A stretch of 59,585 bases of DNA, taken from a virus. Taxonomy: Duplodnaviria; Caudoviricetes. The notes under the pieces are model-generated. The model had not been told where the DNA came from. It searched no databases and saw nothing but the letters and a program-made list of their open reading frames with translations. This document shows positions 2,702-42,115 of this stretch, one piece after another. The translations under genes were made by a program, and so were the position numbers. Within the stretch, counting starts at the first letter, position 1, and every line of letters starts with the position of its first letter. The stretch is taken from positions 1 to 59,585 of the IMG/VR virus record IMGVR_UViG_3300011409_000288. One strand, given 5' to 3'.

Positions 2702-4132
2702 TCAAGGTAACGCTGGAATCCCGTCAATGAGGGCGTCAATCCGTTCCTGTTTGGCGACCAGGGTGGCCGAGATGTGCGCCTCCAGGGAACCCTCGAAGAC
2801 CAGATGGTGAATCCGTACCGGCCTGGTCTGTCCAATGCGACACGCCCGGTTTTCACATTGGCGCATGACGCTTGGCGACCAGTCAATTTCCGCAAAGACT
2901 TCCAGGTCCGCAGCAGTCAGCGTCAGCCCCTCGCTGGCGACTCTGAGCGAGCCCAGGAGCATCCTGCAGGTAGGGTCGCGTTGAAAGGTGTCGGCTGCGC
3001 TGTGTCGCTCCTTGAGGCTGACAGAGCCATCTATTGTGACGAGATTGATATGGGCAAATGCCTCCTGGAGCCGTGTGATCACGGCGCGGTGCCAGACAAA
3101 CACAATAATCTTTTCGGTGTCCTCTAGACAGTTGGTGAGATGTGTAATCACTTGTGGCAGCTTGGCGAGCGCGGTCGCCTGGCGCAGCCGCGCTAGGTCT
3201 GCCCTCGCAGCCGTGCGGCCGGCGCGAAGCTGCTCGACCGCTTTTCGGTATGTCTGGGTATCGGCGGCTTGCTTGGCGAGCTTGACCTGTTTCCGTAAGG
3301 TTTCCGTGGTGGTCTTGTAGCGCGCATGCTCCTCTAATTCCTTGGTGATAACAGTGGTGTGGCCATCGGCAGGGAGTTCGATCACCTGCCGAATTTTTTC
3401 TGGCAGCTCAGGCAAGACTTCCTCCATGGTGCGCCTGAGCATGAGGGTACTGCTGATCGTGGTATGCATGGCATGGACCGCTGAGGGGTTCCTGCATGCA
3501 TCCATGTAACGATGGATGGATTGCCAGGTCAGCGGGTCCAGGTAATTCAAACATGCAAAGAGGTCGGGCAGATGGTTACACAACGGTGTGCCCGACATGA
3601 GGAGTTTCCGTGTAGCGGTAATGCTTCTGGTGGTAATGGAGCGGATGGTGTCCATATTGCGGAGAGCATGACACTCATCAATAATCACTTGATCCACCAC
3701 ATTGCCACCCAGAAATGCGGCGGTGCGTATCGGTTTCCCGAGGGTGGGAAGGTTTGTCAGGGTACAAAACCTGGCAACCTGTTCATAGTGAAGGATCACC
3801 AGAAGGCGTTGGCCCGTCCTTGCGCTCCGTAGCCTAGCCTGCAATGTGGCTGGCGTCTCAGTCTTCCCTATGAGATGAATGGCGTATTCCAGGTGTGGCA
3901 GAAGCCAGTCTACCGCCATCGTGGCCCACATCCGCTTGAGAGTGACAGGGCAGACCAGGAGAACGCTCCTGATCTGGGGCATGGCGTTGAGCATGCCAAG
4001 GGCCTGAATACTTTTTCCAAGGCCGGGTTGATCCGCCAGGAGGGTTGCCTGCTGATCTATCAGAAAGCGGATACCTGTTTCCTGAAAGGGTTTATACTGT
4101 TTACCTGCTGGCGCAACCAGTGGTGGTATCAT
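2702..4132 (-). CDS. SNF2-family (SMARCAL1/HARP-like) helicase/ATPase
   Basis: LLADQPGLGKS, IIDECH, MSGTP, SEGLTLTAA, QCENRACRIGQ; start placed at MIPPLV. Confidence 0.92.
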   Translation of the reverse strand: MIPPLVAPAGKQYKPFQETGIRFLIDQQATLLADQPGLGKSIQALGMLNAMPQIRSVLLVCPVTLKRMWATMAVDWLLPHLEYAIHLIGKTETPATLQARLRSARTGQRLLVILHYEQVARFCTLTNLPTLGKPIRTAAFLGGNVVDQVIIDECHALRNMDTIRSITTRSITATRKLLMSGTPLCNHLPDLFACLNYLDPLTWQSIHRYMDACRNPSAVHAMHTTISSTLMLRRTMEEVLPELPEKIRQVIELPADGHTTVITKELEEHARYKTTTETLRKQVKLAKQAADTQTYRKAVEQLRAGRTAARADLARLRQATALAKLPQVITHLTNCLEDTEKIIVFVWHRAVITRLQEAFAHINLVTIDGSVSLKERHSAADTFQRDPTCRMLLGSLRVASEGLTLTAADLEVFAEIDWSPSVMRQCENRACRIGQTRPVRIHHLVFEGSLEAHISATLVAKQERIDALIDGIPALP

Positions 4133-39799: not shown

Positions 39800-42115
39800 T
39801 TAAACCCCACAGTTATCTTTGACCATAATCAGAACGACCTCGTAGTCTATTGATGGAGACCCTTTCTTTTCTGCCAACCTCCTAAAGAAACTAGCCTTCT
39901 TGGTAAAAACCCTCTCACTACTTCCAAATAACCCCTCTTGTACGCCGTGTTCTTCTACCAGGCTAGCGTGGATTTCTTCAACAAGCCTGAGTCCATGCAT
40001 CTCACATAGTTGTCTCCATTGGTCACAGAATCTTACACGTTTTTTCTTCGACACATAGTCTTTTAAGACCCATGCGGTTACTCCTCCAGGCTTCAGGACC
40101 GACACGCATGCACTTACGATGGTACTACTCGCCTTCCAAAATGTATCCTGCTCTTGGTATCCGACGTTTGAGGTTTCTTGCCCTGCTAAGGCAGGACGAT
40201 GAGCAATACTTAAATCTGCCCCCTGCAAGAGCAAACTGCTTTCCACATTGGAGGCAGGTGTATTGCTTTGCGTGTTTTTCCCTAAATTTTTTATAGGCAC
40301 GTCTGTGGACTTCTGCTCTACAGGCATCAGAGCAACACTTTCTTCTATTTCTTCCTGTTGTTTGTTTTCCACAGATGGGGCATATAGCAACGACTGGCTT
40401 TGCTCTATGATGGGAGAGATGGCATCCTGCACAGAGGGTTTCGAGATTGTCGATGTCGTTATTCCATTCGCCACCCGTTTCGTCTTTGTTTTTTTTGTGG
40501 TGGACCTGGAGGAGGGTGGTCCCGCCACATTTGACGCAGGAGTGTCCGTCGCGCTGAATAGCAGCTCGTCGTTGGATTCTCCATGCATAGCCTCTCCAAC
40601 GGTCGGAACCTCCGCGCCAGTGGGGGTGAGACTCTCCCCAACATTTAGGAGTTGGCTTGTTAAATCTAGCAGCGGCAACGTTCCTTCCGTGGCCTGGAGG
40701 TTTTGGTCTTCCTTTAAGGGAAGCACTGACATGCTTTCTACTACATGGCTTACACCATCTACTCTGCTTTGTAATTGGCGCTCCACAATCTCCGCATTGT
40801 GCCATCCACTTTCTCCTAAACAATGATTTGTTTCGTACATTCTATCATCATTTATTGTGGATGCAAGGTCTAAATTAGCTCCAGGCAGGTTTCCCAACTG
40901 GCCTTCGGAGGTGCCGTACCAATCCTGCCCTTTGCAATTATCCGCATGCTCTTTCAGCCCACTGCCTCCATGGACCACACCTGCGCCATATGGTGGGCTA
41001 GTCAGGACACAGGAGACCTCTTCCGCCATCCCACTGAGAGTGCCCTCTGGAAGTGCCGCCAGTTGCCCCTCAGATGCCACGTAGCCCTGGTTTCCACTGC
41101 CGGATGGTATATGTGATCGGCCTGTGGCCCCGCCCGTCTGTGGCGTGCCCTTGCGCTCCATTCGGGCAATATCGGCTTCCCTCGATTCGTTCGTATGCAA
41201 ACTGGCAGCATAGGGTGGCGAGGAAATAATGGCCGAGGCATCCCCTGCAGGCATGGCTCCAAGCTGGCCAGGGGAAGTGCCGTAATCGGTGTAGTCAGTT
41301 TTGACACGGTTGAGACTTATTGACAGATCAGTACCTGCGTAGGTCCCTTTGCCCTGAGAGCCTCCTGTTTGCTGGAGTGATGAAGCAAAGGGAGGGCTCC
41401 CAAGCACAGCATGTGCTTGGTCCTGGCCTAAGATCACACGGAGGTTCCTACTATCCCCCTGGAGCAACACAGGAAGCAGTACCTTTATTTTGCCGCAGAT
41501 CGTGCAGAGCGACGAGCCAGAAAGGGTTTGTTCACTTCGCGCTGTCTGGCGTGCCTGCAAGTTATCGAGGAGCAAACGATTGATGAGCGATGGGCTATCC
41601 TCCTGGGGTGCGCTCTCATCTGGAGTAATTGGCTCCGGCGTGGGCTCTGGTGGTGTATCATCTTCTTTGCTAAACATCGATGGCAGAGTGCTTGCAGGGG
41701 CCTGATCAGGCTTCGTATCCTGCGTGGCGCTCTGGGAAACAGAGGCACGGGTGGCTGCAAGAAAAGCCGCGCCGTGCTCGCCACAAATACACCATCCTTC
41801 CTGTATCCAAAAGAGGATGTTTTTGTGCCCCAGGATACGAAAAAATCCCTCCAATTCAATCCCTACCCACTGCAACCCATAATTCGCCGCATCCAAGGAC
41901 CCAAGCGACACCCCACCAAATGGATCAAGAATTGTATCACCCTTTTTGATATATCCCTTTTCAAACAAGTATAAATAGATTTGGTTTATTAAAGATCGGG
42001 AGAACTTGGCTGGATGCCGAAATGCCTCCTCACATATGACTCCTTGCCAGTTCTTTTTGTACATGCCGTTCCAGATGGTTAGCTCAGCATCGTTCCTGTC
42101 TTTGGTCATCTCCAT
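39800..42115 (-). CDS. DNA methyltransferase (SPPY type, probably N4-C/N6-A) with repeats and two insertions
   Basis: HPAKF, ILDPFGG, GIELE, QGDSRNL, SPP(F/Y) x3, VLKPGG...VLKD. Confidence 0.85.
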   Translation of the reverse strand: MEMTKDRNDAELTIWNGMYKKNWQGVICEEAFRHPAKFSRSLINQIYLYLFEKGYIKKGDTILDPFGGVSLGSLDAANYGLQWVGIELEGFFRILGHKNILFWIQEGWCICGEHGAAFLAATRASVSQSATQDTKPDQAPASTLPSMFSKEDDTPPEPTPEPITPDESAPQEDSPSLINRLLLDNLQARQTARSEQTLSGSSLCTICGKIKVLLPVLLQGDSRNLRVILGQDQAHAVLGSPPFASSLQQTGGSQGKGTYAGTDLSISLNRVKTDYTDYGTSPGQLGAMPAGDASAIISSPPYAASLHTNESREADIARMERKGTPQTGGATGRSHIPSGSGNQGYVASEGQLAALPEGTLSGMAEEVSCVLTSPPYGAGVVHGGSGLKEHADNCKGQDWYGTSEGQLGNLPGANLDLASTINDDRMYETNHCLGESGWHNAEIVERQLQSRVDGVSHVVESMSVLPLKEDQNLQATEGTLPLLDLTSQLLNVGESLTPTGAEVPTVGEAMHGESNDELLFSATDTPASNVAGPPSSRSTTKKTKTKRVANGITTSTISKPSVQDAISPIIEQSQSLLYAPSVENKQQEEIEESVALMPVEQKSTDVPIKNLGKNTQSNTPASNVESSLLLQGADLSIAHRPALAGQETSNVGYQEQDTFWKASSTIVSACVSVLKPGGVTAWVLKDYVSKKKRVRFCDQWRQLCEMHGLRLVEEIHASLVEEHGVQEGLFGSSERVFTKKASFFRRLAEKKGSPSIDYEVVLIMVKDNCGV
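40125..40805 (-). CDS. HNH endonuclease nested out of frame in the methyltransferase gene
   Basis: HPHWRGG, QRDGHSCVKCG..LQVHH...NDIDNLETLCAGCHLSHH, plus CxxC fingers; AGGAG 7 nt before ATG. Confidence 0.88.
   Translation of the reverse strand: MAQCGDCGAPITKQSRWCKPCSRKHVSASLKGRPKPPGHGRNVAAARFNKPTPKCWGESHPHWRGGSDRWRGYAWRIQRRAAIQRDGHSCVKCGGTTLLQVHHKKNKDETGGEWNNDIDNLETLCAGCHLSHHRAKPVVAICPICGKQTTGRNRRKCCSDACRAEVHRRAYKKFREKHAKQYTCLQCGKQFALAGGRFKYCSSSCLSRARNLKRRIPRAGYILEGE
40839..40866 (-). promoter_or_regulatory. Internal promoter for the nested HNH
   Basis: TTGCAT-16 nt-TAGAAT at the 5' edge of the insertion. Confidence 0.55.

What the first reader, a model, noticed from the sequence alone, without database searches (positions are those of the whole stretch)
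40125..40870. Complete HNH gene hidden out of frame inside a methyltransferase whose own frame stays open
Seen: the MTase ORF reads through ~240 Ser/Thr/Gln-rich codons between GQLGNLPG and QEQDTFW with no stop. Another frame on the same strand encodes a coherent 226-aa HNH with its own AGGAG RBS and a TTGCAT-16-TAGAAT promoter at the insertion edge. I see no intein termini and no group I core motifs. A naive (61/64)^235 estimate gives ~1e-5 for an open frame by chance. Inference: a homing endonuclease that avoids disrupting its host gene by overprinting, tolerated as a disordered loop, a route distinct from introns and inteins.
Basis: partly seen in the sequence, partly recalled or inferred. 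Interest (0 to 1): 0.88.

Follow-up and report, generated by a model that had tools for sequence, protein, structure and literature searches.

The report
Hidden HNH gene inside phage methylase
A selfish DNA-cutting (HNH) gene with its own promoter sits in a shifted reading frame inside a phage DNA methylase gene whose own frame is kept free of stop codons, an arrangement first published in 2023-2025 and seen here in a different methylase family.

Summary
A 771-aa amino-methyltransferase ORF (39800-42115, minus strand) reads without a stop through a complete 226-aa HNH gene (40125-40805) that lies in its third frame.

For this window alone, chance gives about 1.6%, not 1e-5. Comparison settles the question:
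- Seven diverged relatives of this HNH (36-59% pairwise identity) sit at the same site of the same methylase family with no host-frame stops, where 3-5 are expected.
- Two other HNH lineages are nested at other sites of this family, also with no host-frame stops, where 4-13 are expected.
- Codons with T in second place avoid purine endings (4/31 against 42% genome-wide). Other four-fold codons do not (40/79).
- The element has a patchy distribution on the methylase tree.
- Its host-frame translation is predicted to be disordered and matches no Pfam family.
- No intron or intein signature was found.

It matches the "ShiLan domain" hidden HNH of mycobacteriophage methylases (Gosselin 2023; Arsenault 2025), and this scan has noted the kind in at least 53 other genomes.

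New here:
- a different methylase family and HNH lineage;
- a conserved internal promoter, with a ribosome-binding site or a leaderless start;
- the cassette stands in place of the last SPPY repeat module;
- a decayed second cassette lies upstream in the same gene.

The parts
39800..42115 (-). Host gene: amino-DNA-methyltransferase ORF, 771 aa, one uninterrupted frame (stop codon at 39800-39802)
   Evidence: ORF; PF01555, 1.9e-7; P0001 identical, 57 relatives; GGAGG lies 5 nt before the ATG at 42115 (read)
41810..42115 (-). Methylase N-terminal core with motif I (DPFGGV)
   Evidence: nearly invariant D64 P65 F66 G68; pLDDT 81-97 over residues 11-110, above 90 for nine of the ten blocks
41447..41809 (-). 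Site-1 segment (WCICG...CTICGK): probable decayed remnant of a second nested cassette (HNH_3 type); host frame open
   Evidence: 29 of 32 bases at the 5' edge equal L022, where an intact 228-aa HNH_3 ORF sits at this site. The 3' part also aligns, and the roughly 390-base middle with the HNH_3 catalytic core is absent; the +1 frame matches the last 57 aa of that HNH_3 (35%, E 3e-6 pairwise); the L022 ORF is PF13392, 2.3e-11
40880..41420 (-). Three SPP(F/Y)...YGxSxGQLGxxP repeat modules. The first follows QGDSR and is the likely catalytic motif IV
   Evidence: module number varies among relatives; low confidence, pLDDT 41-56
40148..40877 (-). HNH cassette as an inserted or replacing block. Edges are good to about +/-6 bases
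   Evidence: the 5' edge aligns with L022, L015 and L019; insert-free sister genes; the HNH stop lies immediately before the TFW/YW codons in five relatives and 8 codons after them in L048
40839..40866 (-). Internal promoter TTGCAT-N13-TGA-TAGAAT (extended -10)
   Evidence: 2 matches to TTG-N16-TGNTANAAT in the window against 0.09 expected; the same pattern lies directly upstream of the HNH start in L019 and L022. L015 has TTGACA-16-TAGAAT
40813..40817 (-). Shine-Dalgarno AGGAG, 7 nt before the HNH ATG
   Evidence: Read. L022 has AGGAG and L048 has AGGAGG in the same place
40125..40805 (-). HNH endonuclease ORF, 226 aa: N-terminal Zn ribbon, HNH core, two C-terminal Zn ribbons. The last 6 codons plus the stop run into the methylase TFW region
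   Evidence: family matches; invariant C90, H102, H103, N116, N120, C125, C128, H129 in 11 of 11 sequences; C93 in at least 10 of 11; pLDDT 76 overall, 77-93 over the core, above 90 in three of its five blocks; best local structural match 5h0m
39803..40144 (-). Methylase C-terminal core (TFW...LKPGG...FFRRL), in frame with the N-terminal part
   Evidence: conserved in relatives with and without the insert; pLDDT 86-97

Best explanation
What it is. This is a 'hidden', read-through homing-endonuclease cassette of the ShiLan type. A self-contained HNH gene lies inside a phage amino-DNA-methyltransferase gene, on the same strand and in its third frame. It has its own promoter (TTGCAT-16-TGATAGAAT), a 27-nt leader, AGGAG and an ATG. 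It stands where the last SPPY repeat module would otherwise be, just before the TFW helix.

How it works. Ribosomes translating the methylase mRNA read straight through the cassette. This adds about 240 unstructured residues to a loop that already varies in length, so the N- and C-terminal halves of the methyltransferase fold stay on one chain and the gene stays functional. The nuclease is made separately, from a transcript that starts at the internal promoter.

What keeps it so. Selection on the phage removes any host-frame stop from the cassette. In this frame relation a stop can arise only from a codon with T in second place that ends in a purine, so those codons end almost only in pyrimidines.

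How it spreads and decays. The nuclease presumably cuts insert-free alleles near the conserved ...AVV|SSPPY codons. Double-strand-break repair then copies the cassette in, with the adjoining module lost by gap repair. Cassettes later decay by internal deletion while the host frame remains open.

Shown here: the anatomy, the purging of stops, the conservation of the HNH catalytic residues, the patchy distribution, and the absence of known intron or intein signatures.

Inferred: read-through translation, an active methylase, use of the promoter, cleavage and homing.
For: 1. Anatomy.

2. The arrangement recurs. Eight of the 9 loci with close HNH relatives (L001, L015-L018, L020-L022) have the host frame open across the whole HNH and on into the conserved methylase C-terminus. 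L048 does too. L016/L017 and L015/L020 are near-duplicates.

3. Stops are missing where they are expected. No host-frame stop was seen in 11 of 11 elements. Expected numbers are 3.0-5.1 for the 7 window-type elements (chance of none, 0.029 down to 0.0008 each) and 4.4-12.6 for the HNH_3 and HTH-HNH elements (chance of none, 0.012 down to under 1 in 4000).

4. Control: 21 of 21 loci with more distant, free-standing HNH relatives have 2-18 stops in that frame.

5. The codon signature is specific. Codons with second-position T end in a purine in 4 of 31 cases in the window HNH, against 0.42 in the window's other genes (binomial 5e-4), and in 40 of 213 over the seven elements. Four-fold codons without second-position T end in a purine in 40 of 79 cases, against 0.50 genome-wide.

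6. The HNH frame carries the amino-acid constraint. Its pairwise identity averages 44.7%, against 28.2% for the host frame of the same DNA, and it is higher in 21 of 21 pairs. The catalytic H/N/H residues and three of the four zinc cysteines are invariant in 11 of 11 sequences; the fourth cysteine is kept in at least 10.

7. The insert is absent from most relatives. By a profile of its host-frame translation, only P0001 itself and P0048 score strongly among 61 proteins; two others score weakly.

8. Patchy distribution. The 6 methylases with the cassette need 6 gains or losses on a 48-row tree, at least 5 of them forced by well-supported branches. Each has an insert-free sister.

9. AlphaFold2 gives pLDDT above 90 for most of the cores (blocks 81-97) and 29-45 for the insert at residues about 414-656. 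The host-frame insert matches no Pfam family.

10. No Rfam intron match.

11. The promoter is conserved.

12. In one further sequencing study, contigs of a relative about 90-96% alike bridge both cassette junctions (records 16 and 17).
Against: - No RNA, protein or activity data exist for either product.
- For the window alone the open frame is only a 1.6% event. With the HNH's own codon usage it is unremarkable (0.41).
- The lineages share ancestry, so the per-locus probabilities cannot simply be multiplied.
- One relative, L019, has both frames broken at one point. This is either a single-base error in a low-coverage contig or a dead allele.
- AlphaFold2 does not place any of the SPPY modules confidently. 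I cannot show that the enzyme keeps a usable motif IV after losing the last module.
- The consensus scanner did not call the window's promoter (its -35 matches 3 of 6).
- Foldseek gave no PDB match at E<=0.001 for the whole HNH model.
- No insert-free allele of this phage was seen.
Confidence: 0.8

Rival explanations
1. The cassette is removed at the RNA level by an unrecognised self-splicing or host-assisted intron, and the open host frame is incidental.
For: Phage HNH genes often ride in group I introns (established knowledge; also stated in PMC11855218, section 3.5). A first-reader note of this scan (unchecked by me) reports a group I intron elsewhere in this genome. Rfam holds only described families.
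Against: No intron family matched even at E<=10. The cassette is nearly all ORF plus promoter, which leaves no room for a ribozyme core. An intron has no need of an open host frame, yet 11 of 11 elements from three HNH lineages have none of the 3-13 expected stops, and the codon bias is specific to stop-forming codons.
Confidence: 0.05
2. The methylase is a gene disrupted by a homing endonuclease and is decaying. The open frame is chance plus recent insertion.
For: The chance of no stop is 0.015-0.41 for this window alone. Phage methylases are often dispensable (argued in PMC11855218, section 4.1).
Against: The arrangement persists across elements whose HNH proteins are only 36-59% identical. 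The methylase cores stay conserved and in frame on both sides. Free-standing relatives always have stops in that frame (21 of 21).
Confidence: 0.04
3. The HNH is not purely selfish. It has been kept as a working partner of the methylase or of the phage, for example a nicking or restriction-like function, competitor exclusion or packaging, with nesting as a way to co-regulate the two.
For: The association between HNH genes and methylases recurs widely (57 notes in at least 53 genomes; unchecked notes). PMC11855218, section 4.2, raises the idea. Phage HNH proteins do have roles other than homing.
Against: Patchy presence, with insert-free sister genes. Truncated or decayed copies whose host frame is still open (L001; window site 1). 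Three unrelated HNH lineages sit at different sites next to conserved codons. All of this is typical of homing elements. The two genes share no regulation: the HNH has its own promoter.
Confidence: 0.09
4. The insert is removed from the protein after translation by an intein-like or protease-dependent step.
For: It is in frame and lies next to a conserved motif, as inteins do.
Against: The host-frame sequence matches no Pfam family. As read, it begins ANLDL and ends ...VGYQEQ before DTFW, without the Cys/Ser/Thr start or the His-Asn end of inteins. It is only about 28% conserved between relatives. AlphaFold2 predicts it unfolded.
Confidence: 0.02

Closest known systems
ShiLan domain: hidden out-of-frame HNH in the DNA methylase gp65 of Mycobacterium phage ShiLan and about nine other actinophages. 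Sources: Gosselin et al. 2023, PMC9957025 (abstract, outline and matched passages read); Arsenault, Gosselin and Gogarten 2025, PMC11855218 (Introduction, Results, Discussion and figure legends read)
   Same: [quoted passage not shown]
- The insert adds no stop in the host frame.
- A complete HNH with flanking zinc fingers lies in the third frame of the same strand (195 aa there, 226 aa here).
- The HNH stop lies in the last bases of the insert (TAAC there; TGA just before the TFW/YW codons in five relatives here).
- No intron or intein signature.
- The host-frame product is predicted unstructured.
- Disjunct distribution among host genes.
- The same gene family also carries other mobile insertions.
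   Different: - tblastn against 50,697 isolated-phage records found no match to this methylase.
- None of the 120 rows of 376 that I saw for this HNH lay under a DNA-methylase feature. The two therefore look like a different methylase family and a different HNH lineage, although I did not compare them with ShiLan directly.
- That paper found no ribosome-binding site and proposed leaderless initiation at a GTG on the host transcript. Here there is a conserved sigma-70-type promoter at the 5' edge, followed by either AGGAG-ATG or an ATG 6 nt after the -10.
- Here the cassette stands in place of a repeat module rather than between two codons.
- This is an uncultured freshwater-sediment phage.
Pacc40 gp60 hidden HNH-like ORF (PMC11855218, section 3.6, read)
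   Same: A second, unrelated out-of-frame nuclease ORF at another site of another methylase. It parallels the HNH_3 and HTH-HNH cassettes found here in L022, L049, L082 and L084.
   Different: It lies in a helicase-methylase fusion and its identity as an HNH is uncertain. Here three HNH lineages occupy one methylase family, and two occupy one gene (L022).
Free-standing homing endonuclease genes that split a host gene into two ORFs (Aeromonas phage Aeh1 mobE in nrdA; recalled from memory, not read here)
   Same: A promoter-bearing endonuclease cassette inside a coding gene, with neither intron nor intein.
   Different: There the host gene becomes two polypeptides that reassemble. Here it remains one ORF read through the cassette.
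Intron-encoded HNH homing endonucleases such as I-HmuI (named in PMC11855218; otherwise recalled)
   Same: An HNH nuclease that targets conserved codons of the gene it lives in.
   Different: Those depend on RNA splicing. No ribozyme was detectable here, and the host frame is under selection to stay open.
Inteins with homing endonuclease domains
   Same: In-frame residence in a conserved gene, translated together with the host.
   Different: In an intein the nuclease is in the host frame and is removed by protein splicing. Here it is out of frame, and the host-frame product has no splicing motifs.

Membership tests
ShiLan-type hidden (out-of-frame, read-through) HNH insertion in a phage DNA methylase | A block inside a DNA methylase ORF that is absent from close homologues | tested here: met
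   insert-free relatives and sisters; only P0001 and P0048 of 61 proteins score strongly
ShiLan-type hidden (out-of-frame, read-through) HNH insertion in a phage DNA methylase | No stop codon in the host frame through the block, with the downstream host sequence in frame | tested here: met
   also true of all 10 related elements
ShiLan-type hidden (out-of-frame, read-through) HNH insertion in a phage DNA methylase | A complete HNH ORF in another frame of the same strand | tested here: met
ShiLan-type hidden (out-of-frame, read-through) HNH insertion in a phage DNA methylase | No detectable intron or intein features | tested here: met
   Rfam at E<=10; Pfam on the host-frame insert. Computational only
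ShiLan-type hidden (out-of-frame, read-through) HNH insertion in a phage DNA methylase | Disjunct distribution among host genes | tested here: met
   6 changes for 6 rows, at least 5 of them forced
ShiLan-type hidden (out-of-frame, read-through) HNH insertion in a phage DNA methylase | Sequence homology to ShiLan gp65 or to its HNH | tested here: inconclusive
   I held no ShiLan sequence. tblastn of the methylase against the phage records found no match. For the HNH, the Mycobacterium-phage matches in the 120 listed rows of 376 lie under WhiB, a Holliday junction resolvase, one annotated HNH endonuclease or hypothetical genes, and none under a DNA methylase
ShiLan-type hidden (out-of-frame, read-through) HNH insertion in a phage DNA methylase | Host protein made full length and unspliced; HNH expressed | not testable with these tools
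   No RNA or protein data
HNH endonuclease (PF01844, beta-beta-alpha-metal fold) | Catalytic His, Asn and His with CxxC...CxxC zinc ligands, and a family profile match | tested here: met
   4.7e-6, above the cut-off; C90, H102, H103, N116, N120, C125, C128, H129 invariant in 11 of 11; C93 in at least 10 of 11; core pLDDT 77-93; 5h0m, probability 1.00, rmsd 2.4 A over 70 columns, E 0.024
Homing endonuclease (functional sense) | Cuts the insert-free allele and is copied into it | not testable with these tools
   Only indirect evidence: a fixed site next to conserved codons, patchy distribution and decayed copies
N6/N4 amino-DNA-methyltransferase (PF01555) | Motif I (FxGxG) and motif IV ((D/S)PP(Y/F)) on a Rossmann-type core | tested here: met
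   (the profile matches only the motif I part, residues 47-129); DPFGGV and QGDSR...SPPF are present. Activity and target base are not testable
Group I or group II intron | Ribozyme core detectable by covariance model | tested here: not met
   no intron family at E<=10
Intein | Hint-domain motifs in the host frame, a Cys/Ser/Thr start, and His-Asn before a Cys/Ser/Thr | tested here: not met
   (no family). The insert begins ANLDL and ends ...YQEQ before DTFW
Gene split by a free-standing homing endonuclease gene ('genes in pieces') | Host gene divided into two separately translated ORFs | tested here: not met
   A single 771-codon ORF

The most novel reading that the evidence does not exclude
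Read-through nesting may be a general third way of life for homing endonuclease genes, and one that evolved repeatedly. In this one phage methylase family, three unrelated HNH lineages (best PHROG families 1271, 20891 and 7545) took it up at different sites. Each sits beside conserved codons and each has its own promoter, often placed so that the mRNA would be leaderless. That would answer the question the ShiLan authors left open, of how the hidden nuclease is expressed. The cassette's second frame may also be moulded to the host: it stands in for a deleted SPPY module as a linker, or re-supplies the strand before SSPPY as in L084. If so, the selfish gene and the host protein are co-adapted within the same nucleotides.
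Probability: 0.4. Interest if true: 0.6.

Novelty: new member of a known kind. Interest (0 to 1): 0.45.

Why it matters
Homing endonuclease genes are usually said to survive in essential or useful genes only by riding in introns or inteins. The ShiLan papers proposed a third way, and this locus and its relatives strengthen that proposal in four respects.
- The third way is not peculiar to actinophages.
- It is maintained by measurable selection against host-frame stops.
- Several HNH lineages use it within one gene family.
- The nuclease probably has its own promoter.

There is also a practical side. Gene callers report only the long methylase ORF, so the window's HNH was absent from a 5.8-billion-protein database. 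Such nucleases are therefore systematically missed, and 'disordered inserts' in phage proteins deserve a six-frame look.

Tried and rejected
- Group I or other RNA families: none found.
- Intein or any domain in the host-frame insert: none found.
Its long insert at site 1 was therefore judged only by likeness to L022.
- Isolated-phage records: no match to the methylase. The HNH gave only weak matches: 3 records at E<=1e-3 and 376 at E<=10, of which I saw 120 rows. I could not compare directly with ShiLan, for lack of an accession.
- Foldseek of the whole HNH model against the PDB: no match at E<=0.001. The multi-zinc-ribbon architecture drew zinc-finger arrays. I did not run the wider structural search.
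- Promoter scanner: it listed no minus-strand site. I relied on conservation instead.
- Sequencing runs: 4 holders, all DNA contigs, with no RNA holder listed. Laying them gave no joint, so no empty-site allele was seen. Two of the runs may be the source of the window.
- Antisense ORF 40248..40826 (192 aa): rejected as a gene. It is in register with the HNH codons, and the absence of TTA and CTA codons there keeps it open in the window (1 stop). The same frame has 0-7 stops in the six relatives.
- The weak profile hits to P0057 and P0026 were not followed.
- Of the 61 viral loci, 6 (L079, L085, L088-L091) had no motif-bearing open stretch of 200 codons and were left out of the nested-ORF screen. 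The tree used 48 rows that carry both motifs.
- Literature: 'homing endonuclease' with 'overprinting' gave 0 papers. Two broader searches gave nothing relevant. PMC3229294 and PMC5601072 were checked by term search and are not about this. The precedent came from a lead in the scan's own notes and a search for 'ShiLan'. Supplementary files of the two ShiLan papers were not opened. They may hold sequences that would have allowed a direct comparison.


Full report
**1. What is in the window**

On the minus strand, one ORF runs from 42235 (TTG) to the stop at 39800-39802. Its likely start is the ATG at 42115, five bases after a GGAGG. That gives 771 aa, identical to database protein P0001.

It is an amino-DNA-methyltransferase. 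Pfam PF01555 matches the motif I region (1.9e-7). DPFGGV, ELE, QGDSR...SPPF, TFW, LKPGG and FFRRL are conserved among 57 relatives.

Between motif IV and the TFW helix the family carries a variable number of repeat modules of the form '...DAVVSSPPY...YGxxxGQLGxLPxG'. The window has three.

After the third GQLGNLPG, the methylase frame continues for about 240 codons of Ser/Leu/Glu/Thr-rich sequence and rejoins the family at ...QEQDTFW.

In the third frame of the same strand lies a 226-aa ORF (ATG at 40805, stop at 40125-40127). Pfam places it in HNH (PF01844, 4.7e-6) and PHROGs in phrog_1271, HNH endonuclease (6.5e-19).

The methylase frame has 0 stops across this ORF and the remaining frame has 17. 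AGGAG lies 7 nt before the ATG. TTGCAT-N13-TGA-TAGAAT lies at 40839-40866.

**2. Is it more than chance?**

In this frame relation a host-frame stop needs an HNH codon with T in second place that ends in a purine. The HNH is poor in such residues.

I resampled synonymous codons for the HNH protein from the window's own codon usage. This gives 3.3 expected stops and a probability of 0.015 of none. Shuffling the HNH's own synonymous codons gives 0.41. The window alone is suggestive but not decisive.

The reason for the 0.41 is informative:
- Second-position-T codons end in a purine in 4 of 31 cases, against 0.42 in the window's other genes (binomial 5e-4).
- Four-fold codons without second-position T end in a purine in 40 of 79 cases, against 0.50 genome-wide.

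The bias is thus confined to the codon class that can make host-frame stops.

**3. Relatives**

The HNH itself was not in the 5.8-billion-protein collection. Four relatives were.

Scans of viral and metagenome contigs gave 30 loci. Nine of them hold close relatives (L001, L015-L022). In eight of these the frame one base downstream of the HNH frame is open across the whole HNH. It continues in both directions for 254-800 codons as a methylase of the same family, rejoining at TFW/YW. L016/L017 and L015/L020 are near-duplicates. L001 holds an N-terminally truncated HNH remnant whose host frame is still open.

The ninth locus, L019, has both frames shifted at one point. That fits a single-base indel in a low-coverage contig, or a dead allele.

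A further example, L048, came from a scan for the methylase itself.

The other 21 loci carry more distant HNH genes that are not nested. All 21 have 2-18 stops in that frame.

Simulation with local codon usage gives 3.0-5.1 expected stops for the seven distinct window-type elements (chance of none, 0.029 to 0.0008 each). None is observed.

These lineages are related by descent, so the probabilities cannot simply be multiplied. But their HNH proteins are only 36-59% identical. In 21 of 21 pairs the HNH frame is better conserved than the host frame of the same DNA (mean 44.7% against 28.2%). The HNH frame carries the amino-acid constraint. The host frame is constrained mainly to stay open.

**4. 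Other nucleases do the same in this gene family**

L022, a methylase of the window's subgroup, carries two nested ORFs in one open host frame:
- the window-type HNH;
- at an upstream site after 'WCTCG', a 228-aa HNH_3 protein (PF13392, 2.3e-11; phrog_20891) in the other alternative frame.

L049 has the same HNH_3 type at the same site in a distant methylase clade.

L082 and L084 carry a third type (phrog_7545, 1e-11 and 2e-10; no Pfam match at E<=0.01), placed directly before an SSPPY motif.

For these four elements, 4.4-12.6 host-frame stops are expected and none is seen. The chance of none is 0.012 for L049 and under 1 in 4000 for the other three.

In the screen of 55 analysable viral loci out of 61, four had a nested ORF with HNH similarity. 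The L001/L078 remnant makes a fifth.

**5. Junctions**

Insert-free sister genes exist for L022 (L064), L048 (L069), L015 (L031), L018 (L086) and L016 (L035). In the three clearest pairs (L022/L064, L048/L069, L015/L031), the flank ends at ...(A/S)V(V/I). The sister continues with (S/T)SPP(Y/W/F) plus 45-60 residues up to TFW/YW. The occupied gene has the cassette there instead.

So the cassette stands in place of the last repeat module rather than between two codons. Because the modules are repeats, which one is 'last' carries some alignment uncertainty.

In L001, L015, L016, L018 and L021 the HNH stop (TGA) lies immediately before the TFW/YW codons. In L048 it lies 8 codons after them. In the window and L022 that codon reads GGA, and the ORF runs on for 6 and 14 more codons into the methylase.

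My best estimate of the block in the window is 40148-40877.

**6. Expression signals**

The 5' edges of the window, L022, L015 and L019 align. They show TTGCAT, TTGCTT, TTGACA or TTGCTA, then a 16-nt spacer, then TAGAAT or TACAAT, preceded by TG in three of the four.

The strict pattern TTG-N16-TGNTANAAT occurs twice in the window, against 0.09 expected. In only 5 of 91 loci does it occur at all, and in two of them (L019, L022) it lies directly upstream of the HNH start.
- In the window and L022, a leader with AGGAG follows.
- In L015 and L019, the ATG begins 6 nt after the -10, which would give a leaderless mRNA.
- L082 has a perfect TTGACA-17-TATAAT abutting its start.

The tool's consensus scan did not list the window's site, because the -35 matches only 3 of 6. 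Promoter use is inferred from conservation and has not been shown.

**7. Structure**

AlphaFold2 on the 771-aa protein with 51 aligned sequences gives:
- pLDDT 81-97 for residues 11-110 (above 90 for nine of the ten blocks) and 86-97 for about 651-760;
- 85-91 for the strand and helix around QGDSR;
- 29-45 with almost no secondary structure for the insert (about 414-656);
- low confidence for the repeat modules too.

It therefore cannot say which SPPY sits in the active site.

The HNH model has mean pLDDT 76, with 77-93 over the core. Foldseek gave nothing at E<=0.001. The best local match is the phage GVE2 HNH, 5h0m (probability 1.00, rmsd 2.4 A over 70 columns, E 0.024), followed by other HNH nucleases.

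The catalytic His, Asn and His and three of the four zinc cysteines are invariant in 11 of 11 sequences; the fourth cysteine is kept in at least 10.

**8. Mobility**

On a tree of the methylase cores (48 rows, insert columns dropped), the six methylases with a window-type cassette need six gains or losses. At least five of these are forced by well-supported branches. Together with the fixed site and the decayed copies, this fits homing or frequent loss. Cleavage and homing were not tested.

**9. Decay in the window itself**

At the upstream site (41447-41809), the window shares 29 of 32 bases with the 5' edge of the L022 HNH_3 cassette, and it also aligns over the 3' part. The roughly 390-base middle that holds the HNH_3 catalytic core is absent.

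The +1 frame there matches the last 57 residues of the L022 HNH_3 (35%, E 3e-6 in a pairwise test). The 'CSxxxCxxAxQRE' tail is shared with L049, whose methylase is distant. That argues the segment comes from the element rather than the host.

I read it as a deletion remnant with the host frame kept open. This is a moderate inference, because part of the match lies over sequence that is also conserved in the host frame.

**10. What is already known**

My own searches for 'homing endonuclease' with 'overprinting' and related terms found nothing. The scan's earlier notes pointed to the 'ShiLan domain', and I read the papers.
- Gosselin et al. 2023 (PMC9957025; abstract and matched passages) described an unexplained insert, without stops, in mycobacteriophage methylases, with a disjunct distribution.
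- Arsenault, Gosselin and Gogarten 2025 (PMC11855218; Introduction, Results, Discussion and legends read) showed that it encodes a 195-aa HNH with zinc fingers in the third frame. It starts at a GTG 18 bp into the insert and stops in the last four bases. They found no intron or intein features and a poorly predicted host-frame loop. They described a second case (Pacc40) and left open how the nuclease is translated, proposing leaderless initiation.

The present locus is the same kind of thing.

It is probably not the same lineage. The methylase has no tblastn match in 50,697 isolated-phage records, even at E<=1 for its C-terminal core. The HNH matches only haloarchaeal-virus HNH genes at E<=1e-3. 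A direct comparison with ShiLan was not possible.

The scan's notes list 57 findings of this kind in at least 53 genomes. One of them describes what is evidently the L048 element.

**11. Other data**

The stretch is held by DNA contigs of four studies. Two may be the source of the window. In a third, short contigs of a relative about 90-96% alike bridge both cassette junctions (records 16 and 17).

**12. Verdict**

What this case adds:
- a second, unrelated methylase family;
- quantified purging of stop codons, with a codon-class-specific signature;
- three HNH lineages, and double occupancy, within one gene family;
- replacement of a repeat module;
- a conserved internal promoter that offers a concrete answer to how the hidden nuclease is expressed.

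Noticed in passing
window 41447-41809 (minus strand): The 'WCICG...CTICGK' segment of the methylase looks like a decayed second nested cassette of HNH_3 type. Both ends align with the intact cassette of L022, the catalytic middle is missing, and the host frame is open.
   Followed up: partly
window 40880-41420 (minus strand): There are three SPP(F/Y)...GQLG repeat modules between motif IV and the TFW helix. Relatives have from about one to six. AlphaFold2 places none with confidence, so which SPPY is catalytic is open. An earlier first-reader note (e1-6282382) flags the same repeats.
   Followed up: partly
L022 1201-3600, and 137-1261 (minus strand): One methylase ORF carries two intact nested HNH genes in the two different alternative frames. 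A 374-aa LAGLIDADG_2 gene (PF03161, 1.6e-25) on the opposite strand lies where the methylase N-terminus (before ...AKFSR) should be.
   Followed up: partly
L082 104-574 and L084 4416-4919: A third nested HNH lineage (phrog_7545) sits directly before an SSPPY motif and has near-consensus TTGACA-17-TATAAT / TAACAT promoters at its edge. In L084 the host frame reads ...ADCIV before the cassette and VADIIISSPPY after it, as if the strand before motif IV were supplied a second time. In L082 a 10-base repeat (TTTGATTTGT) flanks the cassette in different frames.
   Followed up: no
L001 4881-5303 (the same contig as L078): This HNH is truncated at its N-terminus and has no plausible start before the catalytic core. 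It still sits inside an open 444-codon methylase frame, so it is a likely decaying copy.
   Followed up: no
L019 about 1000-1260: The HNH frame and the methylase frame both shift by one base at about the same place. Protein P0061 from another assembly matches the shifted ORF. This is either a sequencing error or a dead allele.
   Followed up: no
window 40125-40148; L022 about 3190-3233: Five relatives have the HNH stop TGA immediately before the TFW/YW codons. The window and L022 read GGA there, so their HNH ORFs run 6 and 14 codons further into the methylase. These two elements also share the leader with AGGAG.
   Followed up: partly
window 40248-40826 (plus strand): A 192-aa antisense ORF lies in register with the HNH codons. 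It is open because TTA and CTA codons are absent from the HNH frame. The same frame has 0-7 stops in six relatives, so it is a by-product and not a gene.
   Followed up: yes
window, whole methylase gene: The methylase family is almost unrepresented among isolated phages. tblastn found no match in 50,697 records, and only weak PHROG matches appeared (phrog_12517 of unknown function, 3.6e-9; phrog_18146 DNA methyltransferase, 1.1e-4). Yet 61 loci turned up in uncultured viral contigs.
   Followed up: partly
window 40100-40400 and 40700-40900: G+C falls to 0.42-0.47 at both ends of the cassette, against 0.555 for the window. The methylase N- and C-terminal ends are also low (0.415-0.46).
   Followed up: no
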